From positions 3,472,001 to 3,536,000 of the forward strand of contig CM120641.1 in the NCBI GenBank assembly GCA_051362555.1: a stretch of DNA of 64,000 nt, in the 5' to 3' direction. A program made the translations under genes and the position numbers. The DNA is from Lingula anatina (lineage: Eukaryota; Animalia; Brachiopoda). Within the stretch, counting starts at the first letter, position 1. Every line of letters begins with the position of its first letter. This document shows, in pieces, positions 9,801 through 56,899 of this stretch. Under the pieces are notes generated by a model that worked only from the letters and a program-made list of their open reading frames with translations, made no database searches and had not been told where the DNA came from.

Positions 9801-12588
9801 AATTGGGGAAAATAAGTAGCTTTGTAGGATATGCAGACAAAGAATTATGACTTTGGGACATATATGTGCTTATATAAATTATAAAATTATACCAGTATGA
9901 ATGTTGTACACAGAGACTGTCATTTACAGAGTGATCTATCAAAATATACAGCAATAAGTAGTGAACCTCCCGTGGTATATATGAAATTGAATACCAGTGA
10001 CATATGTTATTCATCTTGGATAATCTCCATGTTACAATAAATTGCACATAAATTTCCTCAGTTGAGGGTTGGAGGTAAGGTTCCCTAGCAGAAGACTGTA
10101 ACCAGCTTGTATCAAGATTACATTCTTAGATTTCATTATTTCTCTTCAGGGAGCTTCAGTTTACAGTATACCAAGTGTTTTTTTTTTTTTTTTTTTTTTT
10201 GGCAGCAAAAAATAGATTTAAGAGTTGTATTTAAACCACATGGACAGATTACAGTAATAATTCAAATTTAGGCACATTTGTTAAAACAAACATTAGGCTC
10301 CCTTCTCTTAGGCCCCGTTAACATGACAAGTCTATTTTCTAAAAATCTATTTTCTATTCACGGTATATTGTAATCACGGTCCCTGTGCCCTGAATATCCT
10401 GCGGCGTAATTACTGACGGTGCGAGCCAGTTACTTCCAAAGCTGTAATTAATTCTTGGGATATACAGGGCACAGGGACCGTGATTACAAGATACCGCCAA
10501 TAGAAAATAGATTTTTAGAAAATAGACTTTCCATGTGAACGGAGTCTTATAGATACTTGCCACTTTGCTTGATTTATATGAACAGAATTTAAGTATACTT
10601 GGATTGTGGAAATTCCTAGTAGCATTATGAAGCACTGCCAATTATGTTCTGTATTTATTGCTACTATCATGAAGAAATAAATGAAAGTATGTGAGTGAGG
10701 TTGTCTTTTTGTTAATCCCATGTCACAAGTCCATGTCACAGATTGCGCCATACAATTATAGGAGAAAACTAGCAGTTACACTTTCATCAATTTTAGAACA
10801 AATGTTTATACAGTGGGGATACATAGAGTTCTGAGTCCTGACCATACCAAGAAAAAAATTTTAAATTGTGAGGCACAATTTTAGAAAATAAAGCACCTGA
10901 AACAGCTGCTACTTTTCCTTGACATAAACTGACATTTCTTTACATTTAGCAGTGCTTGTAACATTTTCCTTTTTTGTTCTATACTAATTATTACATGATA
11001 AAAAGCAATATTTCACTGTAATATAAAACAGTTTGATGGAACTTGCTCTCTGCTCTCAAATATGGATGTGCTGTGAGCTGTCTGAGAACCAGATGTCAGA
11101 TATTTTTCAATTCCATATTTTTCATGAAGGATGACGAGGAGCGCACCAGTGCAAGTTTTCATAGAGACTATTACTTGACTGGGGACAGAGCTTACTGTGA
11201 TGAGGAGGGGTACCTGTGGTTTGTTGGAAGGTCAGATGATGTCATCATATCAGCTGGGTAAGCACAGTTAAAGGTGTATTGGACACTTTCAACTAAGTCA
11301 TAGTTTTGACATATTAAATGTGCTCTGTTCAATGTGATGTCAAATTTTGTTTTTTATTTGGAAAGAACAACACATTGCTATTAAATACGAGAAGGCTGTT
11401 ACATCTCAGTTAAACTTTATTTGTCCTCAACTTAAAAATGGAATTCACATTATGTTAATTTATTAAGTATAGTGTATAATCAGTGGCCAAAAAAATTTTC
11501 TTGGGACTCATTTGATGAGTTCAAGCGATCAGTGTCTTTTTTTTTTTCAAAGAAGCAATAGGTTTACTGAACGTCTTCATTTACAGATACCGAATCGGAC
11601 CATTTTAGGTCATAAGTGCTCTTTTAGAGCACCCAGCTGTGGTAGTACTACTCCACCTTTAAGGAATCTTAGACTTCTTTGTTTATTGTGCTTCTTAATT
11701 TTTAGTTACCGTATTGGACCATTTGAGGTGGAAAGTGCTCTTATAGAGCACCCTGCTGTGGTGGAGTCCGCCGTGGTCAGCAGCCCAGATGAAACTAGAG
11801 GAGAGGTATGCTTTATTGTAGAATTTTTCTGCTTACTAACATGTACAAGCAAAAAAAATAAAAAGCAAATGCTTTGTGAATGAAAATGAAGGGGCTGATA
11901 ATTTGTTTTTCAAACTTGACAAAACATTATAAGTTTCAAGCAAGATGGAAATACTTCATATTATCTAAATGAGAGAATTCCACATAATGCAGCATTAAGG
12001 GGAATATCAGGCTAGTATTTTTTACTCGCACCCTCTTTTGGGTCTGTGTTCAAGTTTTTCTGTTTTTAAAATAAGAAATAATTGACAGCAACAAATGGTT
12101 TTGGATTTCAAATACGTTTTTCCAATCTGCTACTTAACGTCTGCTACTAATTGTTGTTGCCAGCCAGGTTTGAATTGTTCAAGGGATGAAATTTTGACAT
12201 GGTATATTTTCAGGTGGTAAAAGCATTTATTGTTCTCAGTGAAGCATATAAAACCATTGACAAAGATAACTTAACCAAGGAATTACAGGAACATGTGAAA
12301 AAGTCAACTGCTCCTTATAAATATCCCAGAAAGGTGAGTTTATATATATATTTTTTGAATTGGCATTTTACTGTTGTTTCCAGAAAGATCGGCTTTATGT
12401 TTAATATGTCGTATTGTAAACTTCTTTTAAAACAATATATTTCTTTGGGATGGGTGGTGGCTAGTTAGACAATTCATCAGTTACAAACTTTTTCTTAGGT
12501 GGAGTTTGTGGAACAGCTTCCTAAAACTGTGAGTGGCAAAATCCGAAGAGTGGAGCTAAGGGAAAAAGAACATTCAAAAGAAAAATGA
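878..12588 (+). CDS. ACSM3: Acyl-CoA synthetase, medium-chain (ACSM3/ACSM4-like), probably mitochondrial; 16 coding exons, about 592 aa
   Basis: Phase-consistent GT-AG exons: 878-1117, 1547-1635, 1912-2024, 2959-3077, 3504-3562, 3954-4008, 4555-4676, 5141-5297, 5690-5818, 7182-7256, 7782-7862, 9010-9111, 11130-11257, 11706-11805, 12214-12333, 12499-12588 (TGA). Motifs: [14 protein letters not shown]-binding [92 protein letters not shown]. Basic N-terminus resembles a mitochondrial presequence. Family call is firm; the paralog number is not. Confidence 0.92.
2023..2188 (+). repeat. Direct duplication of an 81-bp unit (2023-2103 and 2108-2188) containing the ACSM exon 3 donor
   Basis: AGGTATGTATAGAACTGAGAGAGAGAGAGGATATGTCACCTGTCAAGTTGGGGCCGTAGCAATAGTCTGAAGGTTCAATAG occurs twice, separated by GTAG. 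Confidence 0.9.
2157..2308. mobile_element. Short non-autonomous DNA transposon with 9-bp TSD (MULE-like)
   Basis: GGGG...CCCC termini with about 34-bp imperfect TIRs; TGTCAAGTT duplicated at 2148-2156 and 2309-2317. A related copy lies at 26577-26692. Confidence 0.7.
2426..2584. mobile_element. Fold-back MITE with TIR related to family A, TAG TSD
   Basis: Long imperfect palindrome: GGTCTCATTCCC...TTCTACGTAGATCGATCCAACTTC / GGAGTTGGATTGATCTATGTAGAA...GGGAATCAGCCC. TAG on both sides (2423-2425, 2585-2587). Confidence 0.7.
6609..7160. mobile_element. TTAA-target MITE family B, copy 1 (Kolobok/T2-like), interrupted by a family A MITE
   Basis: TTAA|AGGGATAACAACTGTT ... AACAGTTGTTATCCCT|TTAA. 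Body colinear with copies at 8372-8709 and 20212-20567. Confidence 0.85.
6925..7139. mobile_element. MITE family A, copy 2, nested in a family B element
   Basis: Highly similar to 353-568; TTA TSD at 6922-6924 and 7140-7142. Confidence 0.85.
8372..8709. mobile_element. TTAA-target MITE family B, copy 2 (uninterrupted)
   Basis: TTAA|AGGGATAATAACTCTTCGT ... ACGAAGAGTTATTATCCCT|TTAA; perfect 19-bp TIR. Confidence 0.88.
10311..10546. mobile_element. Harbinger-like fold-back MITE family C
   Basis: TTA TSD (10308-10310, 10547-10549). About 85-bp inverted arms: GGCCCCGTTAACATG..AAGTCTATTTTCTAAAAATCTATTTTCTATT..TGTAATCACGGTCCCTGTGCCCTG and its reverse complement. Confidence 0.82.
11587..11645 (+). 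pseudogene. Decayed partial duplicate of ACSM exon 14 (pseudo-exon)
   Basis: After the acceptor cttcatttacag it reads [18 protein letters not shown], versus [19 protein letters not shown] in the true exon at 11706. Confidence 0.8.
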
Positions 12589-14083: not shown

Positions 14084-16688
14084 CTACAGCTGACCGCAAT
14101 TGTTAATTGCAATTTTTTTGCTGGTCTTGCCACTCTGGCTGCCGAATGCCTCGATCTTGTCGACAACATCCAAGCCTTCTGTTACGGTACCAAACACAAC
14201 GTGCTTGCCATCGAGCCTAAAAAATAAGACAAAACTTTAATACCAACACCACATGTTACAGGTTTATTATTGCTTGCTAATGTTTTTTTTTTTCAATCCA
14301 TATAAACAAAGAACACTCAATGCTGACAAATTAGTGATGACTGTTTATCATGCAAAGCACTTGACAGCAGTGGACAATTTCTCATCTTTATCAAGTAATT
14401 TCAATTAAAAAAAAGTTTTGTAATGATTTTTTGTATTTTATGCAAGTTGTTTATAATTTCAGCAAACAGTTTTTAATCAGATCTTTCTGTCTAGCACAGC
14501 TTAAAAATATACAGACACCAATCAGAGAAAAATTAATAAAATAAACATTAAAATAATATTTACAATAAAAAATTAATCATAAAAAATATAAATAAAAGTT
14601 CATTTTCAAAACTAATATAAATATAGGATCCAGGCAGCGTCACAGATATCCAGGGAATGAGGGTTTCTGAGGTTTAGCCACTGTAATAGGTAGGCAAGTG
14701 GGAATTGATGCGATGACATAGTGGTTAAAATATATACAGACACATGAAGTGTCTGTATACAAAAATTGGACATATTTAAGCAACTTCCACAACAAGAAAG
14801 CCATGTTTATGAACTTCCTCAAAAACCAGTACTTTAAAGCATTGTATTGTATTATAACTATAATTTGGCTGTGTGAATGTAAAATTATACATAGGAAAAG
14901 CAGTCTCAAAATGCAACAATAATTAGATAATTATAAAACAAAATACTTAAATAATTGTCATGTAGTCACTGGTGATATATTATAAAGTGAGAGCAAAATA
15001 AAAAATAACAAGATAACAACAAATACACCATGTTACTAACTTGTATGTACAGTTATTAGTGAAAGCTCAAAGATAAAAGCATAACATGACGAACAGTAGT
15101 GCTAACTGTAGGGAAAAAATTCCCATGTCTTCCAAATAGTTCATATCAAACATGGTCATTGCCAACTTTTAAAAAGAAAGGTGCATATATATATATATAT
15201 TCCATCACCATGCCAAAATAGTTTCAGAGTTATTAATCAAGCTGAAATGAGGCCTCATTCTGTGTTAAAAAGTAAAACATGATAATCTGCATCATACACC
15301 ACAATGTAGCAAACATTTTGGGTCACATTGACGTTAAAATGTTGAGGCTTAACACAAATACCATGCAAGATGAATAACAAATACTGCCACAATTTTTATT
15401 TGGATCCTTTACTACAAAATGGGAACTTTGGTGCAGATTTCACAACATAATGAAAGGAATGACTGTATACATTTTGCCAAGAAACCCCCCCTTATATCAA
15501 GCAACATTGAGGATTTTTGGTCACTTTACCAGCCTGTCTCGACGGTACAGATGAAAAACTGGGAACCATTTGTGTTAGGTCCAGCATTGGCCATGGACAA
15601 AGTTCCTGATTGTAGACATAAAAAGACAAAATATCAATCTCTAAAGTCTATCAATTCAACGCAATCTGTTGTTAATGTCAAATAAGTTCCTTACCATGGT
15701 GTTACAACTGTGCAAATAAAAAACTGAGAACCATTTGTGTGTGGACCTGCATTAGCCATGGACAAACAACCTGAAAGTACATTGTATACCCTGAAATGGT
15801 GATTTCCTTCAAGAAACCAGTCACACTAAAATGCAGTGCATAAGTACAGTTATGGCAAATTAAAACATTTACAAGTGACAGATTAAACAGACAAATAAAT
15901 AGAAATGTTTAAAAAAAATACATATACCAATGTCCTTGTTATAATTATGTAAATGCATACACATGTACATCTATGTTACCATAACATTTTAGCTTCGATA
16001 AACTAATAATGTAATTAGTTTTTTTCCAAGAAAAAGATCAACCATTTAGTGCATAACCAAAGAGATTTGCAGATTCTAGTAGTTACTGTATAATAGGCAG
16101 TGTCAAAATAGAAACAGGAAACATAAAAATTACACAGGAAAAAAAGTAAATTTGTTGTAATATATATAAAACACTACTACAAAATACTTATGCAACTCAA
16201 ACAAGACCACGTGCTAAAGGATAAACCAAATTTACCCCCCCTCACCCCCCAAAAAAAGATTGAAATTGGACCTACTTCCTTTTTTTCTTGGTCATAAATT
16301 TGACTTGTTTACCTGTACCTCCAGTTCATGGAGGTCTGTCAAATTACTTAGTAATGTATTGTGCATTACTGCTGCACACCAAATAGCACAATTTTCCAAA
16401 TGACAGTTAGCAAACAGGATCTAGAGATATGTATAGCAGCACAGAAGGAAAGCAGAAAATACCTGTTCAAATATCTTTTTGCGGGAAATATGAAACAATA
16501 CCCTTTGGTATACCTTTGAGGTACACTATATGGTAGCATGTATTGGGTTTTAGTGTAACTGACTTGACAAGTCAACTAGCATTTTTAAACAGCACATAAC
16601 ATAAGATATTCTGGAATAAAAACCCCAAGCAGTCCCTGGATTCAAATTAATATTTTAAAGAACAGTAACAAGAATTTAAAAAATAAGC

Positions 16689-16733
<45 letters not shown>

Positions 16734-19280
16734 ATCTTGATTTTTCCTGCAGTTAACCATGCAACTGTTCTTTTGCACAAATAGAAACTCTTCCAAACAC
16801 TGAAACAAAGCTTTTGAGAAAAAGTAATAAAAAAAAGTTATTAGGAATCAAATTGCACAATAAGGGCATTATCTTACATGTGATATTCATAAATATTTTA
16901 AAAAAATTATGTGACTCTCCTCGCAACCAGTTAACCTAATCCTCTAATATTTCTGTATGTTGGTAGGAAAATTCTCCTGTAATGAAATGGACATCTTTAC
17001 TGAGAACCTTGAATATGTGCTAGGTGTTTGCTGTAGAGGAATTTCCAACCAGGTACTTAAAAGGTCAAACTTCGCCTGCACAAGCTTCTAAATAGTTGCT
17101 TTACCTTTGCCAGTGTGCTTCAACTGGAAGTTCTCATCTTGAAACTTCTCCCCATAAATGCTCTTGCCACCAGTTCCATTGCCATGGGTAAAATCGCCCC
17201 CTTGGAGCATGAAACCTGGAATGACCCTGTGGAATACGCACCCCTTGTACCCATACCCCTTCTCTCCAGTGCACAGGGCACGGAAGTTCTCTGAAATGAG
17301 CCATAGACTTGCATAAAAAAGACAGTATTCCTGAGCAGTTATTAATAGTTTTACTGGGATATGTGGTAGGCTTAACATAGGCTGCAGAAGAGAAATTCCT
17401 TTCATGTTTAATCTTTCATTTTTTCCAGACTTTTTTCTTTGTGAACTGTAAAAAGACTTAGATGAAAATAAAATTAATTTTATTAAGGGGCAAAAGAAAT
17501 TATGCTTCACACTTAAGATAGCAAATACAATCAGTCCTAAAGGTTGGCAACAGAAACAGCAGCAAAACAAAAGGCAATTGATTTTTGCACATAATGGATA
17601 ATCTTAACTGGTAATGATATTGATCTCTACATATATGTTAGGCAAGATATATAAGCTGCCTAGAAGACTTCCAATATGCCAATGAAATCAACAAACTTTA
17701 GATAACTTTCTTTGTGTATTAAAATGAACAATCACCAACATTATAAGTAAAAAGAATGAGGTGTTATACATGTTCAGCAATGAAGAAATAGATTCAGTAA
17801 CCAAATTAGTAAGCATAGTAAGATAACATCAAATGACATCATTCACTTAGTAGATATGAGTAACCTTTGGGTGTGTTGCAATCCAGTCCTCTTCATAAAA
17901 ATTCAGGAGTGTCAACATGTACATAATAAGTTACCGGCATTATTTTTTCTTTTTTTTTTTTGTAAACTATTTGAAAGAAAGGACTAGGTTTACAATTCTT
18001 CAATGCGATCCTTATGACTATTGGTCCTGAAGGTTTTATGTCTGTGACTGGAGGTTTAAATGTGGTAACATGTCAGTATTTGGTCTTAAAATACCTACCT
18101 GCTGTCTTTGGTACAACATCAGCGCGCAGCTAAAATGAAAAAGAAATGTAATAAATAATTGAACATTTTGCCATAATCATACATGTACTTCAAGAAGAAC
18201 CAAGAGGAACAGCATTTCTCTATCAGAACAGTTCAACCTGTTATCTCAATTTTGATCACTAAATCCTGGTTGATATAAATTTATCAATGGATATCATGTC
18301 ACATACCTCATTCACACTACAGTGTGGAAGTGGATAAGAAGCAAATTTGAAAAAACCCAAATATAATTTGATAATTTTAGTTCTCTTCCATCTTGAAATT
18401 CGTTGTGCACCTTGCTGCATCATTTAGCAAAAAAAGGGGGAAAAATGCTAAAATTTTTAAATATTGTACATTTGTCATGTATCCCAATTTACATTTAAAT
18501 TCATCAAAATGATCCAGAATAGAGTGAGAACAAAGCACACAGACACCTCTCTAAGAGGACCCAGATTAAGTCTTTTTTTTTTGGTAGCATCAGCTAAAAT
18601 ATCTTCACATAAATCTTATTCCACATTGAATTATGTTTGGCTTGTAGAAAAGTAAATAAATAAGTCCATCTTAAATATGTCCAGTTGTTTCTCTTCTCAT
18701 GATGTTTTTTGGAAGAGCAGGGGAATGGGGAAGGTGGCACGTACGGGTCAAGGCAAAAAAACATGGTAAAAATTAGCGACCCCGCCCTTCTAGAAATTAC
18801 GTAACAATTATTAACATAAAAGTATCAGAAATAAATCAGAACTTTCATCCTCGTACTTCTCTCTACCATTTTTATTTCTTAACATTTAATCAAAGTTGTT
18901 ACGACGCAGACCGGTCAAAACACTACGTCAAGGTCAAATAAAGGTCCTTTGTATGCTTGTCTGTTTGCAGTTGTCAATAAAAATAAACATTTCAAAATAT
19001 TGCACTAAATGTTAAAACCTAAAAAAATTTGAAATCACAGTGCACTGCTTCATTAACACAATATCTTTTGGATACATGTAAAATCTAGAGACAATATGAA
19101 GATAACTAAAATGTAACACATTATCAGTCTTTAAAAGACCGGCCGGCAACTACCTTGGTTGTCATTAGATCTACACAAAAGAAATTAACATTTGTTGATT
19201 TCTGACAATACCTCCATGACGATCCTCCCGAGCGCATTGCCGTCGGCACTAACATCAAAGTATACCTTCGGGTTACTCAT
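14084..19280 (-). CDS. PPIA: Cyclophilin-type peptidyl-prolyl cis-trans isomerase (CypA-like), paralog 1; 164 aa; alternative exon 4
   Basis: Exons 19280-19212 ([23 protein letters not shown]), 18129-18099 ([10 protein letters not shown]), 17290-17105 ([35 protein letters not shown]...), exon 4a 15770-15695 or 4b 15605-15530, and 14216-14084 (LDGKHVVFG...NCGQL*). Total 495 nt. Catalytic and cyclosporin-binding residues equivalent to R55, F60, Q63, F113, W121 and H126 are present. Symbol denotes the family, not proven orthology. Confidence 0.93.
15530..15605 (-). CDS. Cyclophilin 1 exon 4b (candidate mutually exclusive exon): [26 protein letters not shown]
   Basis: 76 nt, acceptor ...tatgtctacaatcag, donor TG|GTAAAG, phase 1 to 2, open frame. 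Confidence 0.85.
15695..15770 (-). CDS. Cyclophilin 1 exon 4a (candidate mutually exclusive exon): [26 protein letters not shown]
   Basis: 76 nt, acceptor gtactttcag, donor TG|GTAAGG, phase 1 to 2, open frame. Confidence 0.85.
16692..16731. repeat. (TA)n microsatellite
   Basis: About 20 TA units in cyclophilin 1 intron 3. Confidence 0.95.
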
Positions 19281-19376: not shown

Positions 19377-20211
19377 TGAGCGCGACGTATTACTACGCGA
19401 ATTAAATTACAATTTGTCATTTATCATGCATTAAATTGGATCCCTTACTCACAAGGATATGTCAATATAATAAATATAATAATATAACAGAAAATTAGGC
19501 TATATGAAGTATATTTAGGTATCAAACGTCATATATCTTGGATCTACTTTTTTTGAAAAAGTAGTCTCATTTTCTCAAGGAAGCTCACATGTACGAATGG
19601 GAGCTCATCCGCTTGGCGTACTATATAGCTAGAACGCTTTGCGGTCTTTGTTAACTTTGTGCAACAATTTACTTGGTGTACGTTAATTTCATTTTGGGTG
19701 ACCCTCTTTAGCGTATAATCTTATCATATTTGTCATTGCAGTGGATCTGTTATCATTAATATATTATACCTAACCTTTTAAACTTAGCTAGCCTATATTT
19801 TGACGAATATTGGCGCCAAGTTGGATCTTTGTGTCCCTTTGTCTTACCTTTGTGCTCAACGGTCAGATTTACGTGACAACAGGAGCGTATTTCGGCATTT
19901 TACTTCCTCGTGTCGCTTAGTCACGTAGATCATAACGTGATCATTTTTAAATATAACTTATTTTGATTTCTTTTTTTTTTGTAGCCTACATATGGAAGTT
20001 TTCAGATGTAGCTGCACCGGTAGGGCCTAGTCACTGCCCCGAAGGGTGGGGGCAACCAAAGTGCACAACTTTGAAAATAAAAGCACGATTCTGAAAAGTT
20101 CTAGTTTTCATTAATTTTTTAATTGTCAGACTAACTGCACCAGAGATTTATAATAAGATCTGTCAAAGGTGCTCAACAAGGGCACCATATCTAATAGAAC
20201 TAAACAATTAA

Positions 20212-20567
20212 AGGGATAATAACTCTTCGTATGAGGTCTATAGGGCCTATTTCACAATAAAAACATTGTGAATAACTCATAGAAATATAACATATTCTGT
20301 TTTACGACAAAAGCAGGAGTTATAGCTATTATTCTGATATCTGAGCTTGTCTTCAGACCACGTAACTTCCATGCTGGCTATACTCGATCTGTATAATCTC
20401 TTAAGAGATTTTAACAAAAAAAAAAAAAAAAAAAAAAAACTTTTAAGAAAAAACAGGGACTAACTTTGAATGTAGAAATGGATTCATTAACCATTGGTAA
20501 GTATGGGAAAATTGTTGTTTACTCCAGGAAAATTAATTTTTTTTGGCCAAAACGAAGAGTTATTATC
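20212..20567. mobile_element. TTAA-target MITE family B, copy 3 (inverted, one end eroded)
   Basis: Reverse complement of 8372-8709. Left end TTAA|AGGGATAATAACTCTTCGT intact; right end stops at ...GAAGAGTTATTATC. Confidence 0.85.
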
Positions 20568-22935: not shown

Positions 22936-25900
22936 TTACAATTGGCCACAGTTTGAAATTGACACAGTGCCGTTGGTCTTCCCACTATTTGACCCAAGAG
23001 CTTCCATCTTCTGCACAACATCCATGCCCTCCTCCACCTTGCCAAACACCACGTGCTTATTATCCAGCCTGTACAAGGAAAAGATACCCAATCACTAATG
23101 TGATAAATTTAAAAATTTGCATTTTGGCAGAGCACATTAGCAACCTCTATTAACAGGATATCACTGCTTCTTTGCCAAACAAAATCTAGTCAATTTTCAG
23201 TAAAAAACATAATTGGCCTGTCAGATATGGTATGAACATATGTATATGAAAGGGGACAAACAAACAGGCAAAAATATATGCACACACTGTGTCCGTAAAT
23301 AATATACGTGATGAGTGGGTAATACATCCCATATTTTGGACAGTGAGCCATGTTGGACACCATGTATTAATTTTCCTGCTGTTTTTCTAATGCTAAATTT
23401 ACTTGATGAGATCAAGCATAAATATATTTAAAAAAAACAGAAATTAAGTTATTATCAATATAAAAAGTAAACAAAAAATTAATTTTTTTACTTTAATAAA
23501 TAAATAATAAAAAAATGTCCCCTTCCCTGTGATTCCTTCTTCAATACTATCAAATCAACAAATTACTGCTTATGTGTGATCACATATTACAATAATATTC
23601 TTCCTCAATGTATGCCAAATTGCACATTTATTTCTTGTTTAAATGGGTCACAAGACATTTAATTTTTGTGACTTACCACTCAGTCTTAACAGTTGTAATG
23701 AAAAACTGGGAACCATTGGTGTTTGGTCCTGAATTGGCCATAGACAGCACACCTGACAAAACAATTTAACAGCAGTTAAACAGTAATTCTTGTGAAAGAG
23801 ACTATTCATAAGTGGATTGAAGCACTCACTCTCAACAGGCATGGCCATCGGAGATACCAACAAGGGTAGAAATGTTGCTTTCTTGGTTCCTATGGAAAAC
23901 TATTGTGAGCTTGGGAAATCTTGGTCAAATCTTACTTTCCTGTAAATCATTGCTGAAGTCCAGGAAATGCAAAAACCTTTAGGAAAATAGCTATTAAAGG
24001 TCGCTTTCTGGAATAACTGGCACAAAAGCACAGGGCTCCACATAAATGACTTTCAGGGAACAAAAATCTGTAAAACAAATCATTACATCTCTTCGCGGCA
24101 CCATTTGTTTATATGTGAATAGGGCTAGCCAATTTATAGTTGCCATAAATAGACACAAAACTGATGTATGTTCAGGTGAATATTGAGAAAGTGACATTAT
24201 GCCGCAAGCCGATTGGATCATATTTATATACTCCAGCTATTTCAAGAGCTTGTTTTCCAAATGCCATAAATTGCGTTTTAGAGGCATTTTCAAATGTTGA
24301 TTTGCTGTACATTTATGATTGAAATGATGTTTTGTCAAACTTCAGTTCATTTAAGAATAGATCCACTTTTGGGCAGATTTTTCCAGTCTGATTTTGGTCA
24401 TTTTGGTTTCAAATTCTTGGCAATACATTCTTGATTACATGTGAGTCTGTTCTTCTACTACTGTGACCGTTTAACCTTGTATTTCTCAATCAGATCAGAC
24501 ATATGTCACTGTACAATTCTCCCTGGCTTCTGCAGTGGCAACAGAAGCATTGAAAAGCAAGGAATTCCTTAAGGGTGAAGCAGGCACACATGGTGCTGGT
24601 ATGCCCTAAATAACAAGTCTGGACCCTTGTAGTATCTGTACTCAAGTCCAAACTGAAGTGTGAAACTTAATACATGTAAATGTACCATAAATTGGCATAT
24701 ATATTTAACATTATAATATACAAACATTTCTGCAATATGTGATATCACATACCTGGTCCTGTATGCTTATATATGAAGTTTTCATCTGCAAACTTCTTTC
24801 CATAAATACTTTTCCCTCCTGTGCCGTTGCCCATGGTAAAATCGCCACCCTGGATCATAAATTTTGGGATAATTCTGTGGAACACACAACCATTGTATCC
24901 AAAGCCTTTTTCACCAGTACACAGGGCACGGAAATTTTCTAAGAATAATTAAAATAAAATATCAGTCAGTAGTGAACACTGAAAAGTAAAGTATTTCATG
25001 CAATAAGTAATTTTTAGACACCATTCCTTTTCTGGAAAAGGATATATGAAAATATGTTGCTAAGCAAGGATCACTTGCTCTGTCAAACCCGAAAAAATAA
25101 TTTATAATAAAAAATTTGCAAATTGTCAAATACACTGGTAACTGTTTGTTGCATGAAATATTAACAAACACAATTTTCACTAAATACCATAGAGTGTGTA
25201 TTTCAATAATCATTTATCATCATCTGCATGCAAAATGATCATATAAGACATACCTGCTGTTTTGGGCACTTTGTCAGCAAAAAGCTGGAAAATATAATGA
25301 ATATAAAATTTATTCAAATTTGTAAAGTAAATATACAGGGAAGATGTTTCAGATGTTGGGAGATCTTTAAACTTGTATTCATAGTACATATATAAAAATG
25401 CACAGGCCACTCCCTTGACGGGTTGGTCGAAACATACATTTTATGGTTTATGAAATTATGAGGCATCTGCTCCCATAGGAGTAGTTTTTCTTATCAATTA
25501 AGTGAAAAGAAAATGCCATTTGAAGCTTTTCTGGTTACAGTGGTATGTGTTAAATATGAGATATGCCAGACTACAAGTAAAAAAAATGTAAGCAGTGTTA
25601 CTACTTGTACTTCTGTCTATAAAAAAAAAAACAACACCAAAATTATCAATATTATCTAGGCACATCACTCCTTTAACTTACAGTATACTCAATTACTGAA
25701 AGGGCGATTAAATTGGTAACAGCAGTATCATATATATGAGCAGCATATTAAAACCAGGAAGTAACTTTTGATGAACTTTGAACCATAATGATTTTATCGC
25801 GCTTAGAAATAGTCTAACAAGATGATACTATTAGTATCACGCCACTGTAACTCGAGTATGTATCGAAACTTGTCGCCATGATACACCATTTTCATGTCAA

Positions 25901-25982
25901 TTAATAATGTTACCTCCATGACAATGCGCCCCAGTGGTTGCTTATTGTGCACAACATCAAAGAAAACTCTGGGATTAGCCAT
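22936..25982 (-). CDS. PPIA: Cyclophilin-type PPIase (CypA-like), paralog 2; 164 aa
   Basis: Exons 25982-25914 ([23 protein letters not shown]), 25284-25254 ([10 protein letters not shown]), 24938-24753 ([35 protein letters not shown]...), 23752-23677 ([26 protein letters not shown]), 23068-22936 (LDNKHVVFG...NCGQL*). Exon sizes 69/31/186/76/133 nt. Candidate minus-strand AATAAA at 22105-22110. Symbol denotes the family. Confidence 0.93.
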
Positions 25983-34179: not shown

Positions 34180-37100
34180 CATAACTACAATTTACATATA
34201 TATAAAAACCCTCATACAGTTTTTATAACAAAAGAACCTATTGCTGACATGAAACTTCTACTAACCTCCAGAATCTGGTCTCCAACTTCCAGACCATAGT
34301 GCTCGGCCAGGCTGTTCTGTCCCACGGAAGATATAAAGATGCCGCTGCCATTCTTCCCTGGCTTGATTTGAATACCCAGTGGTTGAAATGTTTTCTCAAT
34401 GCTGATATGTCTGGTCTCCCCAATCTCAGGTCTAAAGAAATTGAGAACAACATTTTAAGAAATAACAAATTGTGTGCCTTGTAAATTTGCACTAACTATA
34501 GACCTACCATACTTGATATATAGAGCTACAGTGCAAACACTGTCATATTCACTTCATCGTGCTTTTATTAGAGTTAATAGTCAATTGATACCTAATGAAA
34601 GTCACCAATATCAACTGCATATCAAACTTTTGTTATATCAGTTGCTCTGTAATCTGTAGTCTGACATGACTTTTGCTACAAGTCCTATGTTTTAGCTTAC
34701 TTCTTTCTTGTCCTGGGAGGTTCAACGGAAGGAATGGAGCCTGTTGAGCTGTTAGTGCCAGGATGTTCAAGGTGTAAATATGGTGACATGGGACTGCTGC
34801 GATCTGACACTGAAATATACCGCAGTCAAATAGAAATTCTACATTCTAATACAATGAAAAGTTTCCAAAAGCAAACTAGGGAAAATGGACTCAGTGTGAT
34901 GGGACACAGAAATATATCAAAGCTGTGGACTTATATCCTAATAATTTTTTTCATTTTAAGAATAAACTACACAAACATCAAACTACTGATTTCACTCACA
35001 CTGTCACACACATACAAACTTTCTTCTCTTAGTTACTTTATAATAGACTGAGATTTCAGATTTTCACACAGTAAGACAATGTACTTTTCACTTACAAGAG
35101 CCAGCAGACCAAATGATCTTGCTGACGGAATTATTGACAGAATCTTGCGAAGGAATGCGAATGCGAGCAGTGTGATGCGGGTGATGATGGCCTCGTTTTG
35201 GGAAGGTTGAGAAACCATCGCTGTGCTCCAACTGTCCACTGCTGTGGTACGCTTTAGGAGCAGAGACGCCTCCGTATGGAAACTGTTCCTCGCTTGGGGT
35301 CGGGGTGGCTCTGTCCACTGTACTGCTGCTCTGTTAACATCAATACACATGCATATGGTTAAACAAGACGCAATATCAATATGGTAAAACATCATATATT
35401 CACCCAATACCAATACGGTTAAACATCATATAATCACCCAATATGTACATAACACATTTTAAATAGTGCTTGCATGGGCAAAATGTTTGACTTTCATGGT
35501 TTCACAAGATTACAGGAGGAGGCCTCACCAACTGTTAATTTCTCCTTGCTTCCTCTAACATGGTTTCAGTATTTAAATGCTGAAAATTTTGACCAACTGA
35601 TATGTGAGCCCTATTAGCTACAGGTTTTCAGCCATATCAATTATCTGATCCAAAGGAACATTCCTTCAGGCAAACAGAAATCCACTGTATATTTATAATA
35701 TTCTATAGCCTTAATAACACTTCACAAAGGCAGAAACCATAACCAAAGCAAGCAGAACAATTAGGAAATTTAAACTTACAAATGATGGCGAGGGAGATGT
35801 ACTGTACGGTTCATGGCGTATATAAGACCTCAGTGGCTCGGGACGTTGGTGAATTCCAGGAGGAGACGTAACTCGCGGGGAAGTTGGTTGACTAGTAGAT
35901 GGGAAGAGAGGACCAACTGACTGAGGTTGTCCATACACATTGGGGGATGTTCGCCGATGGTGGGCTGTTGAACTGGAAACAAGAACAACAGAAATAATGG
36001 AAACTCAGATACAGAACTACTTACATGGAAACCTATTCAATATAAAGCAGAGCCCCAGTTTAACTGCAAGTAAATCTCTTAGTTTCAAGATGAGGAAGAA
36101 GCAGAGTTGAAAACTGACCTTGGAGTATATACAGGCTGTGACTTCACCATGCCTTGGTAAGAAGCTGGGTGGTACCCTGCAGCTCGTTCCTGCAGCTTGT
36201 TTGATAATGGCGAAATCTTATCTCGTGGAGAAGTTGGCTGAGTGCCGTAAGTCTTTTGTTGGTTTGGTAGGTACATGGGTTGAACCTCCAACGACCCTGG
36301 CTTTGCGATGGGACTACTGTAGGTGGCATTAATTGGGGGTCGGTGGCCTGGGCCTCGTTTGTTGGATGGCGCTGACGTTGGCCTATGTCGTGGCGAGGGA
36401 TAATAATTGTTGTGTCCTGAAGTGACCGAGAAGTCCATGTCAGGTGTAGAAGTGTTTGGGTAATGAAGTGGTTCGAAACGCTTTTCTCCATCAGAGCTAA
36501 TCTCGTCTACTGAACTGTGCTTCACTGTGGCTTTGGGATACTTTGGCTTGCTACTATGGCCGTGCTGTGACGATGAATGAAGTGGTTTTTGTGGGGGTTT
36601 CTCCACCACAAAACTGGGTCCGTATTTGGCAGACATGTCAGAGGAGTTCTGTGGACTATGGACTTTCACTGGGAAATGATGGGACTTGTTTGTGTCCCGT
36701 CCAATGGAAGAAACTCCAGGGATATTTTGAGTCATCTTTGGATAAGCTGATCTTGGGGATGCATATTGTTGCGGTTGCTGTTTCTGTTGCTCTTGCAGTT
36801 GTTGTTGTTGATTTGGAGTTTGCTGTGACAACATCTCTGGTATTCCTGGTCGCTCTTTTTTCTTGTGCTCCCCTGGTACCAGTGAAATGGTCCCCGCACT
36901 GGTGAATTCTAAAGCACCCCTATATTTTGGCCAGGTACCTCCATTCTCTTCAATCTTCACACGCTTTCGTTTTTCTACGCGGGGTTTGTAGTCAATATCA
37001 TCCAGCACCGAATTGAGCTGTGTAAGAGCATCTTCCTCTGCAGTTTTAAGACTGGTGTCGGTGATGGCAGTGCCACTTTTGCTGAGTCGCTCTTTCTCTT

Positions 37101-38602
37101 GTTTATGCCTGGAACGATTCACAAGTTTGTCCCATGCTAAGGTGATGAAGTTCTCATGATGAGAACTCCGTTTCTCGGGAATATTTTCCTTGTTTTCGTC
37201 CTTCTTCCCAAACTTTCTTGGTGTGTGACCTGGAGTGGAGCACTCGGAACTCCCCGACTGAGATCCTTTATTAGAAGCACTGTTCTGCTTTGAACTGTTG
37301 TCGATCCAGAATTTAGGAAATCGTTGTGAGCCGATGGTAGTTTCTACAGTCTGAGGGGTGGCTTGTATCCCCTCCATAAGGTTTTGGTTGCTCTGGCACC
37401 CAGATGGGAGAAATGAACTTGGCACCGGAATAAACTTCTGTACATTGAGACTAAGACAATCGCTGTTGCTCTCCATAATGGACAGTACATCTGACACAGA
37501 TTTTCCATCTACTGAGCGACCATTTACCTGTCAAAAGAATATGAAAATATCTTTAATAACTATTCAACATGAAAAATTTCAAAGAGGTGTTATCTAAAAC
37601 AGCTTCACCTGGGCGAGGGGGCAGTTTTTGACAGGAAATGTATACTCATAAGATTTTAAGTAGGTACAAAAAGGATGTTAAACAATTTGACTTATCTCAG
37701 GATAATTTTAAATGGCAAATGTTTTTTAAATAAGAGTGAGAGAAGATTAAACATTGCAATGAATTTGGTACAGAATGCTGATATTCTTGATAATCAAGCT
37801 CCGCAATGCTACAGTTGTACTCACAGTCAAAAGACGATCTCCCACGGCCAGATTGCTCTCTCTGGCAGCAGCTGTTCCAGGCACTATCTTTCCAATGTAC
37901 ATACCAAGCTCTGGGTGAATACCTATCTCTGCAAATATGGACAGGGATTTGCATTCCACTTTTTAGAATAAATGCACATTAAATTTGGAGACTAAATACT
38001 GTTGAAATCATATAAAGAGGGAATAACCAGCTTTCTGATTCCAAATTGTGTAACATATATTGCAAATTCACACTCAGACAGTTTATGGTGTTTGTGCTAC
38101 AAGACTACAGACAAAAGTCAAGGTATTCATTCGCAAATAACTGATAAACAGCAGACCAGGAAGTAGTATGAGGTCTTGGATAAACAATCATGGCAGGGCT
38201 TTTATATGGAGAAAACAAACGCATAGCTATACTTCTCCCACTTTCGAGTTGATTGATCCAAATATTATGAGTTTGCAGACTTTATCATAATCAAACAAAT
38301 CATTCAGCATTTGGGAACAAGGTATATCACGTAATGACTGGTTTCTTAAAATTATCCACATGTGAAAATGAAACTAGCTTACGCTTGTTGCCAGATATGT
38401 TCAAATGCACTGGTTGTACTGCTTTAGTGGTGCACTTTCTTCGACGAATGACCTGAAAAAATAGGAAATAAAGAATAAGATAAAAATCTAATAGCAGAAA
38501 TCTAGAAACGAGTATTAAGTCAAATTAAATAATAGGAATATAGACTTCACCGAAGACCACAGAGAAATTTGATTTTTCTTACAAAAGGAAACAGATATGT
38601 GA

Positions 38603-42378: not shown

Positions 42379-45300
42379 TTGACTAAAGTAAAAGAAAACT
42401 GAAATAAAATCCTTGGGCATTTTCTCCAAAAAGTAATTTTGAATCTTAAAATAAATTACATTGAGTCATTGACTACACCCAGCAGCATAACGGTTAAGAG
42501 GGAGTTTTTGCGTCATGACAAAAAACAAGATTGGCCTCTAGACTTGGATGATGTACATCAGTCATGCATGATCTCATATTTTTGCCCCCTCTGTAAGCGT
42601 GTCTCAAACCCCTGGATAAAAACAGCCTGTGACTCATCCTACACAGTATTATCTGATCAACTTTAATTATATCTAAACTCCACTGGCCATTTGTCTTCTC
42701 TGCAATTAACAGTCTAATGATATGCCAGGCAAGCACTTGAGACACTTGCCATTACCAATCAGGGGTTAATTGTTCTGTACATGCAGTATATCCTCAGCTG
42801 TCACTGGTCTGGGGACCATCATATCATATCATAGTGACAATTTAGCCAAATGATAATAAGCCAGGAAATAATTCAAATTTGAAACCTGACCCAGTCAAGG
42901 ATAAGTATTAAAGGCATGGAAAATTTGGTATAGTTATTGACTAAATGATGGAAATTCTTAGTGTATTTTCATTCAATCTCTGTAGCAGCCACCAAGACAA
43001 TAATTCTCATATTATATTATTCAACAATAATATAACATTGACTTCTACAAGAAAACTTTGACATTAAGATGGTGACCATAAAGTTATCCTTCTTGCATGT
43101 CACTTCACAGCTAGGTCATAAAGGTTAACTTATGAAGGACTTTGAATAAGTTTACAGCCAGGACAGTCCATTCACAAAGATTACCTACTTCATTGCAGCT
43201 AAGATATGTTTCCGGCTATAAACTGATATACTTCAAAGGTCAAATGTATTCTACTACAAAGTAAGAGGGCACTTGAAGGCAACTGACCAAAACAGAGTTG
43301 GTCTATGACTCATCTCAGTATCAGGGTTGTGGACTTTCTTTTGTGTCAATGGTAATTCCGGATGACAGCCATTTATGCTATTCTACTCTAATTCCCCTGC
43401 AGATTTGAATTGCTCATTTTTTTAAATGAATAATAGCACTTAACAAAGATCCCCAGGGCAACTTACCTTCCACGTCTTCCTTTAGTTTTTCAATCTCCTT
43501 TTTCATCTCTGCTTCTTTAGTGGAATATTCTTTTTCATCTGCCAGTTTCCATGTTTCACGTATAATGCGATCTCGCTGTTCTAATGCTTCATGGCGTTCT
43601 TTCCGTGCCACATTTCGCTCGTGTGTTAACATTTCAACGTCTCTGCGTACCTCATCTCTCTCTTTCTGTACTTCAATCTTTGCAGTGACAATATCACCGT
43701 ATTTGACACGGACATCGTTGCACTCTTTAATAGCTTTGTCACGATCATGTAATGCCGATGTGATCTCATGGCGCAATGTTTCTATTTCATCTCGCAATGT
43801 TTTCTTGTCTTTTTCATAAACTTCTCCTTTCTTATTTGCCTCATTAAGTTTATCTTGCAGTTGTTCCATTTCTTTGTGTACCTGCCCTCTTTCAGACATC
43901 ACTAATCTGTACTCCTCTATGGCTGCATTCCGCTCTTCCGTTAGGCGAGCTATTTCTTTGGTTACTCGCACAACAGATTGGTTTGCCTGTTGTTGGGTCT
44001 TGCTTAACTGTTCTCGCAAGTCTTCCACTGTACGCAGCGATTTGTCCCACTGCCTCACAACATCAGTGCATTGTTTTTGAAGTGCTACTCGCTCTTTGAT
44101 TGCGCGATCTCGCTCATTACATACATCCGTGTATTGTTTCTTAAGTCGCGCATTCTCCTCTTGCACAGATTCTAATTTGTGAATGGCAATATCACGTGTG
44201 GACATTAAGTCTGCGTATCGTTTACTAAGGGACTCGTTGTCCTTTCTGATTGCTTCATATTTTTCAATTGCAGTATCATACATGCGTGTGAGAATTTCAT
44301 TACTACCACTTTCTGAAATGACTTCACGCTGTTGTTTTCTGAGTTCTTCAATTTCGTGTTTATTTTCTTCTCGTGATTCTTGAAGGTCAATCACCTCTTG
44401 CTGTAACCGTTGTTTTTCTCCTTGTAATTCACTAATTTCTTGTTTCTGAGCATGCAGCTCAATACGTGTGCCTTCAAGCTTGTCCACAGAGATACGATGC
44501 TCATTACGATAGTAATCACTCTCCCTGACGGCCTTGTCACACTTATTCATCGTAATGCTCAACTGAGTCTTCATCGTTTGAAGTTCGTTCATTGCAGTAT
44601 CACACTGGGTCTTTAACCAATCATAATCTCGCACCAAATGTTTGTCAGTCACATTCTTAGTGTCGCCACTGCCCAGAGAAGCCATTTTGGAATAGGAGTC
44701 TAACTGGGACTGTGTCTTCTGCAGTTCCTCTTTCAGGTGGTCCCTATCTTGCACCACTAATTTCAACTCCTGTTTCAGGAGATGAAGGTTGGATTGGTTG
44801 AAGTCATAGTCATGGGATGGCGGTCCATTACGCCTGTATGAAGATGACGGATAGGGAGCATCCTGACTACTACTGTCATCCTCTGCAAAGAGAAGGTGGA
44901 AATGAATTAAAGATGGTGAATACAATTCTGATTACCAGCTTACGAGTGGCGGATCAATGCATTTCCCACAGGGACATTCACTGCCTCCTGCTGCCAGCAA
45001 ATGCCAGCTCAATTATGGAAGACACACAAGTCTATGTTCAATAATCCTGATATTTTCCACCCTACTCTATTGGAGCAAGTGTAATCATCTGTGAATCCCC
45101 ACTTTTTGCTATAAAATCAAGAATATATGACCATTACATCTGACCATTTTTAAATTATCCATTATTGAAGAAACTGTTAGTAAGGTCTTCTATTGATTCT
45201 TCTTAAAACAAAATAAATTATCATGCATTTAGACTAGCCAATTAAAATAAATTTTTGCTACAATTTTACTGTAAGTATCCTGGTCAAATGATGTTGCTAT

Positions 45301-54300: not shown

Positions 54301-56711
54301 GGAGAAAGACATCTAAAAAATAGCTATATGGTACACAGACAGTGTTTAGGCATAAAAACATGACAGAAATTGCTTCTAAATCTTGGAAGAGATTTTCTTA
54401 ACATTTAGTTGCCTGCTTGCTCATACATATATTAAAACACAAGCTAATTATTTCAATTTCTGTAAAAACTATCTGATATATGGTGGTGCTTGATAAAAAC
54501 ATGTTTGTCTGGGATTTAAATCAAGTCCTTTTAAATCCCATTTTAATTACCTTTGACCTCCCACGCTCCCTATTTATGGGTTGCATAAATAACACTCAAC
54601 CAAACAAACTTATTCATTAAATCTTATCTATCATTCAATATCAGATAAGGCACTTAAATTATAATGCTGTCTGTAGCTTAATACTCTCCGCATGTAAACA
54701 AGGTCTGGGCAATATCTACTTTCTCATTATAGCTTGAAGAGATAGTGAAAAGAGATAAATCTTAAATTAGAATACAAGTGTATTTCGCAGCAGTATAACA
54801 TGTACAACAGTGCTGCCATCTCGGGGCAAAATAAAACCAAGTGATGTCTTTCCTTGGAAGACAAAAAACATGTGACTCACACCCTGTGATCTGTAATATA
54901 TTGATATTTGGACACGAAATGTCACCGTCTTAACAAATTCTACAGGATGTTTTCCAAATGCATTCTATTTTAAGAAAAGGTTGACTGAATTTTCATATCC
55001 TGAAATTCATGAATGCATGGACAAACTTACCAAGTAATGTTGACACAGTGTTTTATTTTACCCTATGATACAGATTACAGAATGAGTTAACCCGATTTCA
55101 CTCTTGATGATGACGATATATTTACTCATAAATCTAAACTTTCTCTTCAGGACATAAAGTAGTAAGAATCACATTGAGACACAATGGCTAAATTAATGTC
55201 ATGTTAATTTACAATTTCAGGGTTTTTTTTTTTAACCTGTGAGAATACCTAGACTGAAATTCAGCTTTTTAAAACTTAATATTTCTAGTTATAAATGGAC
55301 CTGCATTCACGTGACTAGTAAAATTTAACTTGACAATGAGGTGTGAAAGAGAGGCCATTTTCCATATTTCCAACCAAAAACAATTGCAGAGACAAGAGGA
55401 GGTTAATCACTGTATACTTACCACTGTTATTCCTCCACAACCCTAGTACCCCTATACTATACTGTTGGTTATCTTCTACAATACTCAATAAGGTACCAAA
55501 TTGTCTCAATTCCGTTTTAAAATTTTTAAATGTTGAACATTTAATGTAAAGAATTCACATGCATATACTGTTTACAAACTGTGTTGACACTTTCACAAAA
55601 AGCAGATCAACAGACAATACCGTTGTTAGGAGCTAAAATCCATCCTTTCTCAAAGCAAATATGATAATATAAACATGATCATTTTAGATGGAAACTTGTG
55701 GTTAAATTTGGCACTGGGGTGAAAAGAGATTGAAAACTGATACTTTTGTGAAATGCAAATATAAGTCTACAAGAAAGGTTAAAACACCCTTGAAATAGAG
55801 CTATATCAACCTTTGCAATCCCCCTCTATTCCTATTGCCATGAGGATGAAAATACAAACCATGAGACAAATCTACACAAAATACTGCTCAGGAAACACTG
55901 ATTATGTGATGTAAACAAAAATCAGTTTTTCAAAACTGTAGTCTTAGATACAATATAATCAAAATAAACAAACTTGGCTCTCAGTATATCAGCTTCACAT
56001 ATTGCACATATCATAAACATGGCACAACACACACTCAGGCATACACATACATCATACACACATACACAGTGCATATTGTGCTAGAGATGGTTAGACATGA
56101 TGAAACCCAGGTACAAATATTTATAATGGTTATAGTTGTGAGACTGTGATACCCCATAGGATTAACTGAGTAACAAAAAACGTGTATTCTGGGGGTAAAT
56201 TTGAAAGAAAAAGGGCACTTAATATTGCATCTTAGGTGCTTACATTTTATCTGAAACAAAAATGATTAGAATTAATTGAACAAATAGAGGGGTGATTTCA
56301 CAAAGGCCCTTCATTTCAAGAAAATCAACTACACTATATTTATTATAAAATATGTAATAATATGGGTGGAATACCAGGACTTAAATGTATGCAGTGTCTG
56401 TCAAACTTACCAGTTTGGGGTGGAGATTTTGTCCCCAGAAACATGACTGTTAACAAGTGTGGATAGGTGGTCTCCAGAGCCAAACACAGAGCCTGGAAGG
56501 CTTGAGGACCCGCAGCTGGCAGGACATCTAACAACTTCTCTACCTTCTCTTCTTTACTTGGCAGCTGACTTATTTCCTGGATGTCCTCGTTCCTTAAGGC
56601 GCCTGGGGACGTTTCGGTTCCTTTCAAGATGGGATACAATCTCTCTACGTCGACGGATTGCACAAATTTCGATCTGTGTTGCTGCAAAAGTTCTCGGTGC
56701 TTCTCCTCCAT
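28629..56711 (-). CDS. DLG5: Discs large homolog 5 (MAGUK scaffold: CARD, coiled coil, 4 PDZ, SH3, GK); 26 exons, about 2077 aa
   Basis: Phase-consistent exons (high-low): 56711-56411 (CARD-like), 49230-49159, 44882-43467 and 41299-41083 (coiled coil; AFSERDKIVLERESMRALCDQLRRERDR), 40819-40684 (SRDSAIDTDLQEWETE), 40261-40134 and 39875-39773 (PDZ1), 38452-38383, 37928-37825 and 37527-36119 (PDZ2 plus linker, GGTWPK), 35972-35780, 35330-35096 (RIRIPS), 34809-34701, 34431-34266 and 33764-33662 (PDZ3), 33384-33231, 32902-32716 and 32386-32284 (PDZ4; LGISLIGGNAVGIFV), 31925-31709 (SH3; GDSFYIRTLFD), 31495-31284 (ARRSFFRRKK), 30983-30942, 30523-30422, 30000-29873, 29588-29479, 29293-29184, 28735-28629 (GK; EQKKTIWVPSGNI*). 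Confidence 0.94.
30221..30340. repeat. Degenerate two-copy tandem repeat (about 57-60 bp unit)
   Basis: TGTCTCAAGCCTC...TTTGCATGCT.TCACTG..TTGAAT.CCA.TTCT.TCAA.TACT repeated twice in a DLG5 intron. Confidence 0.75.
34109..34176. repeat. (TA)n microsatellite
   Basis: About 33 TA units. Confidence 0.95.
35378..35443. repeat. Two-copy tandem repeat (about 33 bp)
   Basis: AATA.GGT.AAACATCATATA.TCACCCAATA occurs twice. Confidence 0.75.
38606..38656. repeat. (TG)n followed by poly-G
   Basis: About 16 TG units followed by a G run; a second G run lies near 38751-38772. Confidence 0.9.
39598..39642. repeat. (TC)n microsatellite
   Basis: Seen directly in the sequence. Confidence 0.9.
42306..42373. 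repeat. Poly-A followed by (AAT)n
   Basis: About 34 A followed by about 11 AAT units. Confidence 0.9.
49330..49456 (-). CDS. Candidate alternative first coding exon of DLG5 (CARD-less isoform)
   Basis: Open frame MPVVYMDTGLQNVGVSDIMSPAAGDKTESSQKCDNNIMEGRP ends in CAG|GTAAGG, phase 1, 99 nt from the phase-1 acceptor of exon 2. Confidence 0.55.
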
Positions 56712-56899
56712 TCTATCCTACTCTCGCAGGCGGGGATCTGGTTGCAGTATGTGCACCCTAACTTTATCTGGAGTGTTTTTCAATGCGGACGCCTGACGCC
56801 ATCATTTCTGATAATCCCCAAAGTAACTTAGTCACTTTCTCGATAAAAGTTTTAAATAGCAAAACATGTTATTCGTAACTAAGTTAACCGATAGATCAA

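What the first reader, a model, noticed from the sequence alone, without database searches (positions are those of the whole stretch)
15530..15770. Tandem duplicated active-site exon in a cyclophilin A gene: candidate mutually exclusive splicing switch
Seen: cyclophilin 1 carries two intact copies of exon 4 (15770-15695 and 15605-15530), each exactly 76 nt and phase 1 to 2, each with its own AG acceptor and GTAA donor, separated by an 89-nt intron. Codon-by-codon comparison gives 11 synonymous differences and 4 amino-acid differences (C/T, H/N, V/E, P/G). Including both exons shifts the frame (TAA at nt 29-31 of 4b) and skipping both also shifts it, so only one-of-two splicing gives the 164-aa protein. 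Established: this exon covers human CypA residues 96-121, including A101, N102, Q111, F113 and W121 of the substrate/cyclosporin pocket; the variable sites map to 97, 106, 118 and 120, next to W121. Inference: both copies are under purifying selection and give two PPIase isoforms with different surface charge near the pocket and an extra Cys in 4a. Exclusion could be steric (short intervening intron) or enforced by decay. I do not know of a described mutually exclusive exon pair in a CypA-type gene, but I cannot search the literature.
Basis: partly seen in the sequence, partly recalled or inferred. Interest (0 to 1): 0.88.

Follow-up and report, generated by a model that had tools for sequence, protein, structure and literature searches.

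The report
Swappable active-site exon in brachiopod cyclophilin
A cyclophilin A gene of the lamp shell Lingula carries two old, intact, side-by-side copies of the exon that builds part of the enzyme's pocket and likely splices in one or the other to make two slightly different enzymes, a design already shown for a green-alga cyclophilin.

Summary
A Lingula anatina cyclophilin A gene has two 76-nt copies of exon 4, each with AG/GT borders. Either copy alone gives a 164-aa protein; both or neither break the frame. The copies are old and selected as protein: dS about 2, dN/dS 0.06, flanks unalignable, and the four residue changes sit at tolerant columns. Mutually exclusive splicing is likely (0.77), with 4b the default: it is in the RefSeq model and has the gene's codon bias, while 4a is AT-rich at silent sites and has the weakest acceptor. 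No RNA reads were laid, so use of 4a is untested. One lead is new: residue 97 (Cys in 4a) is a second-shell site beside Ser99 and Cys115 that tunes turnover in human CypA mutants, so 4a could be a redox- or dynamics-tuned form. Verdict: new member of a known kind.

The parts
19212..19280 (-). Cyclophilin A gene 1, coding exon 1 (residues 1-23)
   Evidence: ATG start, GT donor, translation; matches residues 141 onward of RefSeq XP_023931814.1
18099..18129 (-). Exon 2 (31 nt)
   Evidence: AG/GT borders and in-frame translation
17105..17290 (-). Exon 3 (186 nt; carries R55, F60, M61, Q63)
   Evidence: 100% identical to the Lingula anatina record; Pfam PF00160
15695..15770 (-). Exon 4a (residues 96-121; C97, H106, V118, P120); likely the minor alternative
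   Evidence: GC3 5 of 23; acceptor with 10 of 20 pyrimidines, lowest of nine acceptors scored; not in any protein record found
15606..15694 (-). 89-nt intron between the copies; AG-free zone from nt 57; predicted branch A at nt 61 (29 nt before the acceptor)
   Evidence: branch point predicted from consensus, not mapped
15530..15605 (-). Exon 4b (residues 96-121; T97, N106, E118, G120); likely the default
   Evidence: used by RefSeq model XP_023931814.1; GC3 12 of 23, like the rest of the gene
14084..14216 (-). Exon 5 to the stop codon (carries L122, H126)
22936..25982 (-). Neighbouring cyclophilin A gene 2, same five-exon plan, single exon 4 at 23752-23677 (used as outgroup)

Best explanation
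Exon 4 of this Lingula cyclophilin A gene is present as two old tandem copies that have both been kept as protein-coding sequence, and the gene likely splices in one at a time, 4b by default and 4a as a minor, probably tissue- or stage-limited form, giving two predicted 164-residue isomerases with the same pocket residues but different second-shell and rim residues. Shown: duplicate structure, frame logic, selection on both copies. Inferred: (a) use of 4a in RNA; (b) 4b as default; (c) exclusion, most likely by a weak 4a acceptor that needs an activator plus poor splicing of the short 89-nt intron, with the out-of-frame double-inclusion product (130 aa, no H126) wasted or decayed; (d) function, most likely a modest change in turnover, stability or partner binding rather than in proline-pocket specificity.
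For: Nei-Gojobori over codons 97-120: 12.0 of 17.2 silent sites differ against 6.0 of 54.8 replacement sites, dS 1.97, dN 0.12, ratio 0.06, Fisher p 5e-6. With 4a simulated as neutral since duplication, 3, 1, 0 and 0 of 4000 runs at four time depths gave at least 10 silent and at most 4 residue changes with no stop; with both copies constrained 3-9% did. The four changes fall at entropy ranks 1, 2, 3 and 7 of 26 columns in 120 homologues; 7 of 10626 four-column draws are as variable. 4a silent sites are AT-shifted (GC3 5 of 23 against 76 of 124 in exons 1, 3 and 5, p 0.0005; six silent differences are AT in 4a and GC in 4b, one is the reverse), which suggests many silent changes on the 4a line itself while every invariant residue and both splice sites survived. 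Each 4a residue occurs in natural cyclophilins (C97 4, H106 18, V118 9, P120 82 of 182 domains). RefSeq uses 4b. Published precedent over the same region, RT-PCR verified: Volvox cyn23.
Against: No transcript evidence for 4a was obtained. No record among the best 120 of 3975 hits carries the 4a peptide exactly, and no stand-alone 164-aa record of either form is among the best 120 of 8000 scored (best 85%). In the 120 nearest whole-length homologues (fetched with a 4b-bearing query) 4a's residues are rare: C97 0, H106 1, V118 0, P120 6. No relative's locus was seen, and no pair of fetched proteins differed only inside residues 96-121. No enforcing mechanism was found: no docking-type pairing above shuffles (38 of 100, 60 of 100, 30 of 40 and 32 of 40 shuffles as good). 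Death of 4a within the last ~0.05 substitutions per site would leave these signals intact 15% of the time or more.
Confidence: 0.77

Rival explanations
1. 4a was a working alternative exon but has recently fallen out of use, or is included only at noise level; the gene now makes only the 4b protein.
For: Only 4b is in the RefSeq model; 4a has lost the gene's codon bias, has the weakest acceptor and carries rare residues; a recent death is not detectable (chance of no hit 0.68, 0.47, 0.15 at 0.01, 0.02, 0.05 substitutions per site).
Against: Death older than about 0.1 substitutions per site is unlikely (0.02), a short window against a dS near 2; low GC3 and weak acceptors also fit a minor regulated exon.
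Confidence: 0.14
2. 4a came from another cyclophilin paralogue, by a deletion that fused two tandem genes or by insertion of a gene piece, so its selection signal was earned elsewhere and it is not spliced here.
For: The locus is a tandem array (gene 2 about 3.7 kb upstream); 4a, 4b and gene-2 exon 4 are about equally far apart (57, 53 and 56 of 76 bases identical), so their order of branching is unresolved.
Against: In a fusion, exons 1-3 should resemble 4a, but their GC3 (14 of 21, 37 of 60) matches 4b and exon 5, not 4a. No donor gene with the 4a peptide was found and gene 2 shows no second copy. The rest of the genome could not be searched.
Confidence: 0.05
3. 4a acts as a poison cassette: it is added in front of 4b to break the frame and lower cyclophilin output.
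For: Double inclusion gives an early stop; the predicted branch point is far enough from the 4a donor to allow the short intron to be spliced.
Against: A poison exon has no need to keep cyclophilin residues, yet replacement sites are strongly conserved while silent sites are near saturation.
Confidence: 0.03
4. Assembly artefact (two alleles laid side by side) or copies kept alike by gene conversion.
For: The species is reported as heterozygous at 1.6% (PMC4595640, passage).
Against: The copies differ at 19 of 76 bases, spread along the exon, and their flanks are unrelated; no larger duplicated block surrounds them.
Confidence: 0.01

Closest known systems
Volvox carteri cyn23 exons 4/5 (PMC4378016; section 10, passages and supplement part 2 of 4 read)
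   Same: A cyclophilin-family gene with two equal-length, tandem, mutually exclusive exons whose length is not a multiple of three; by eye from its Figure S11 the alternative block starts at about the same Gly-x-Leu-Ser-Met motif and covers the same loop and the W121-equivalent position; both forms shown by RT-PCR; altered ligand binding proposed.
   Different: cyn23 is a divergent 238-aa cyclophilin of a green alga, 106-nt exons, 13 residue changes including the gatekeeper loop; here a canonical 164-aa animal CypA, 76-nt exons, 4 changes, none at a named pocket residue. Independent origin is inferred, not tested.
Homologous mutually exclusive exons in general (PMC7954323, abstract and outline read)
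   Same: Duplicated exon pair, fold kept, variable residues near a functional site.
   Different: Those events were annotated from transcripts; this one rests on genome sequence alone. Its six supplementary text files hold no cyclophilin term; its web list was not seen.
OGDH exons 4a/4b, steric exclusion by distant branch points (PMC7969005; passages and section 29 read)
   Same: Enzyme with a duplicated exon pair around a short intron; joint length out of frame.
   Different: OGDH branch points lie 25-46 nt from the donor with an AG-free zone behind them; here four AGs follow the near candidates and the AG-free zone points to a branch A 60 nt from the donor.
Human cyclophilin A (PPIA) and its S99T/C115S/I97V mutants (PMC2911226 section 7 and passages; PMC5883053 passages)
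   Same: Colinear numbering; R55, F60, M61, Q63, F113, W121, L122, H126 and gatekeepers 103, 107, 110, 111 present in both predicted forms.
   Different: Residue 97 is Ile in human, Cys or Thr here by exon choice; no exon pair is described for PPIA in the listings I saw.

Membership tests
Homologous mutually exclusive exons | Two adjacent exons that arose by duplication | tested here: met
   57 of 76 bases identical, z 12.6; 89 nt apart
Homologous mutually exclusive exons | Same length and phase, own splice sites, each alone restores the full reading frame | tested here: met
Homologous mutually exclusive exons | Both copies constrained as protein | tested here: met
   dN/dS 0.06, p 5e-6; neutral-4a simulation at most 3 of 4000; recent loss not excluded
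Homologous mutually exclusive exons | Each copy found in transcripts joined to the common flanking exons | not tested
   No reads were laid; 4b is in a RefSeq model whose support I did not see; 4a in no record found
Homologous mutually exclusive exons | The two copies rarely occur together in one mRNA | not tested
   No reads were laid; frame logic only
Homologous mutually exclusive exons | Pair conserved in related species (supporting, not required) | tested here: inconclusive
   No genome held; no isoform-like pairs among 120 homologues or in 10 clusters opened, but these hold no named brachiopod relative
Sterically enforced pair (OGDH type) | Branch point under ~50 nt from the upstream donor with an AG-free zone down to the acceptor | tested here: not met
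   AGs at intron nt 28, 46, 53, 55 follow the near candidates (A17, A23, A44 in part); the AG-free candidate is A61. Prediction only; branch point not mapped
Docking-site/selector pair (Dscam type; family features recalled) | Competing base-pairing between the middle intron and a flanking intron | tested here: not met
   Best duplexes no better than shuffles in four regions; one genome, no covariation test; part of intron 4 not scanned
Single-domain cyclophilin A | PF00160 domain of about 165 aa with R55, F60, M61, Q63, F113, W121, L122, H126 | tested here: met
   residue list from PMC2911226 and recalled for R55, Q63
Single-domain cyclophilin A | Isomerase activity and cyclosporin A binding | not testable with these tools
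   Needs bench assay

The most novel reading that the evidence does not exclude
Exon choice switches the second shell of the catalytic network: 4a places a cysteine at 97 beside Ser99 and the shared Cys115, the two sites whose mutation speeds the Phe113 in/out motion in human CypA, so the 4a form is a redox- or dynamics-gated cyclophilin A made by splicing, in a tissue- or stress-specific way. All 22 fetched domains with Cys97 also have Cys115 (4 of 182 in the exon-3 set, p 0.13; 18 of 113 in a set biased by the 4a query, p 0.02). Against: I97V alone leaves human kcat/KM unchanged (122 against 123) and no Cys97-Cys115 distance was measured.
Probability: 0.12. Interest if true: 0.7.

Novelty: new member of a known kind. 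Interest (0 to 1): 0.38.

Why it matters
Cyclophilin A is a heavily studied single-domain enzyme whose variety in animals is usually put down to separate genes (own knowledge). A natural pair that differs at only four residues, one of them at a second-shell site tied to catalytic dynamics, would be a ready-made test of whether small changes outside the pocket tune this enzyme in life. The same region being duplicated in a green alga and a brachiopod suggests it is a repeated target of exon duplication. The RefSeq record fuses the two neighbouring genes and omits 4a, so the annotation can be corrected. The kind of system itself is well known.

Tried and rejected
Expression: no RNA holder listed; nine raw-read RNA runs with the same species label were listed but are not indexed. 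No reads were laid, so nothing is known here about use of either exon. Whole genome: none held, so other paralogues and other exon pairs in this animal were not searched. Protein search with the in-frame stretch ending in 4a found no exact 4a record. Ten clusters opened (of 120 hits) showed no member pair differing only in exon 4 in the way isoforms would; one pair differed at a single residue, 114, and came from two spider species. Competing RNA structure: none above shuffles. An apparent extension of the 4b/gene-2 match into the downstream intron is not significant (165 of 2000 background windows as good). Order of gene and exon duplication: unresolved, silent sites saturated. One search pooled two searches, one biased to 4a, so its counts were not used; several zero entropies are fixed by the search pattern, so the alignment was used for ranks. 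One search had a pattern error and was rerun. No structure was predicted because the tool returns no distances. Literature: ten searches; cyclophilin + mutually exclusive exons gave 25 papers, 24 listed, of which I opened one (Volvox); PPIA + mutually exclusive exons gave 21, 15 listed, none opened; Lingula anatina + cyclophilin gave one unrelated listing. MetazExp (PMC8728262, passages) called splicing events on 16 Lingula runs and may already list this event; its database was not seen. The Lingula genome paper has no cyclophilin term in main text or its one supplement. A paper on redox control of a Schistosoma cyclophilin (recalled) was not held. Subscription journals and bioRxiv supplements were not covered. 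Earlier scan notes: none on this gene.

Full report
Observation. On the minus strand a five-exon cyclophilin gene has two 76-nt versions of exon 4 (15770-15695 and 15605-15530), each with CAG before and GTAA after, 89 nt apart. Either alone gives 164 residues; both give 130, neither 106. Eleven codons differ silently and four change the residue. The exon covers residues 96-121 in CypA numbering. Exon 3 is 100% identical to RefSeq XP_023931814.1 of Lingula anatina, a brachiopod. That record is a 304-aa fusion of the neighbouring paralogue and this gene, and it uses 4b.

Is the pair selected? Over codons 97-120, 12.0 of 17.2 silent sites and 6.0 of 54.8 replacement sites differ (dS 1.97, dN 0.12, Fisher p 5e-6), and the flanking introns share nothing beyond shuffles. 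Silent distance is as saturated as between the two paralogous genes (pS 0.67-0.76), so the duplication is old. Simulating 4a as neutral since the duplication reproduced the pattern in 3, 1, 0 and 0 of 4000 runs; constraining both copies did so in 3-9%. The four changes lie at entropy ranks 1, 2, 3 and 7 of 26 columns in 120 homologues (7 of 10626 draws as variable; the set was fetched with a 4b-bearing query). Third positions of 4a are GC in 5 of 23 codons against 76 of 124 in exons 1, 3 and 5 (p 0.0005), 4b 12 of 23 (p 0.49); 4a against 4b directly is p 0.065. I infer that 4a took many silent changes toward the intron background (31% GC) while keeping every invariant residue, which is selection on 4a itself, and that 4a is the less used copy. 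The same numbers argue against a fusion of two genes, in which exons 1-3 would share 4a's composition. What sequence cannot exclude is a recent death of 4a: at 0.05 substitutions per site since death, 15% of cases would still look intact.

Expression. No reads were laid, so use of either exon in RNA is untested. Indirect evidence is one-sided: RefSeq has 4b; no exact 4a record is among the best 120 of 3975 hits; no stand-alone 164-aa form is among the best 120 of 8000 scored. Because the one Lingula record is a fused model, its silence on 4a carries little weight.

How exclusion would work. The 4a acceptor has 10 pyrimidines in 20, the fewest of nine acceptors in the two genes, and a competing AG 20 nt upstream. 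The middle intron is 89 nt against 808-1334 nt for the gene's other introns and a species mean of 787 nt (PMC4595640 supplement passage). Its AGs lie at nt 4, 28, 46, 53, 55 and 88, so the AG-free zone points to a branch A at nt 61, 60 nt from the donor and above the ~50-nt steric limit quoted for OGDH (PMC7969005). No docking-type pairing beat shuffles. The double-inclusion stop ends 45 nt before the last junction and the double-skip stop is in the last exon, short of the recalled 50-55-nt rule for junction-dependent decay. I favour a default 4b, an activator-dependent 4a, inefficient splicing of the short intron, and loss of any out-of-frame product; this step is inferred.

What the two proteins would differ in. 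F113, W121 and the gatekeepers A103, T107, S110, Q111 (PMC2911226) are the same in both. Positions 118 and 120 flank W121 and are among the most variable columns; V118E removes or adds a charge. Position 97 is more interesting: in human CypA, I97V and C115S are the two second-shell changes that partly rescue S99T by easing the Phe113 motion, though I97V alone does nothing to kcat/KM (PMC5883053). 4a has cysteine at both 97 and 115, and all 22 fetched domains with Cys97 also have Cys115 (18 of them from a biased set, and not independent). A redox or dynamics switch is therefore possible but unmeasured.

Comparison with what is known. Homologous mutually exclusive exons are an established class, with variable residues typically on surfaces near functional sites (PMC7954323 abstract). 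A cyclophilin precedent exists: Volvox cyn23 has two 106-nt mutually exclusive exons over the same loop, both shown by RT-PCR (PMC4378016). My ten searches listed no paper on such a pair in an animal CypA or in Lingula, but most listed papers were not opened and MetazExp may hold the event. Two earlier scan notes describe comparable pairs in octopus Ras and sea-urchin Argonaute (unchecked leads), so the pattern recurs in invertebrate genomes.

Verdict. Real feature; likely a working mutually exclusive pair (0.77); new member of a known kind; interest 0.38. The bolder reading, a splicing-controlled Cys97/Cys115 switch, has probability about 0.12.

Noticed in passing
window 25982-22936 (-): A second cyclophilin A gene in tandem, same five-exon plan, one exon 4 only; silent sites saturated against gene 1.
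   Followed up: partly
P0006 (XP_023931814.1); window 23011 to 19280: RefSeq joins the first 140 residues of gene 2 to the whole of gene 1; by eye there is no GT-AG pair at that join in this window, so it is probably an annotation artefact.
   Followed up: partly
P0076: The nearest 164-aa relative (85%, unnamed Logan contig) mixes the two states: Thr97 as in 4b, His106 as in 4a.
   Followed up: no
P0153, P0158, P0187 and others: Cys97 with Cys115 occurs in C. elegans cyclophilin 1 and in trypanosomatid cyclophilins, some also with His106 and Pro120 like 4a.
   Followed up: partly
window 56346-56717 (-): Open frame with a CARD domain, E 4e-12.
   Followed up: no
window 11473-11880 (+): Open frame with part of an AMP-binding enzyme C-terminal domain, probably an exon of a neighbouring gene.
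   Followed up: no
window 36088-37530 (-) and 43417-44931 (-): Two long open frames (481 and 505 codons) with no Pfam family above its cut-off.
   Followed up: no
window 20208-20567: A ~360-nt repeat between the two cyclophilin genes with inverted copies at 8713-8375 (87%) and 6913-6612 (76%).
   Followed up: no
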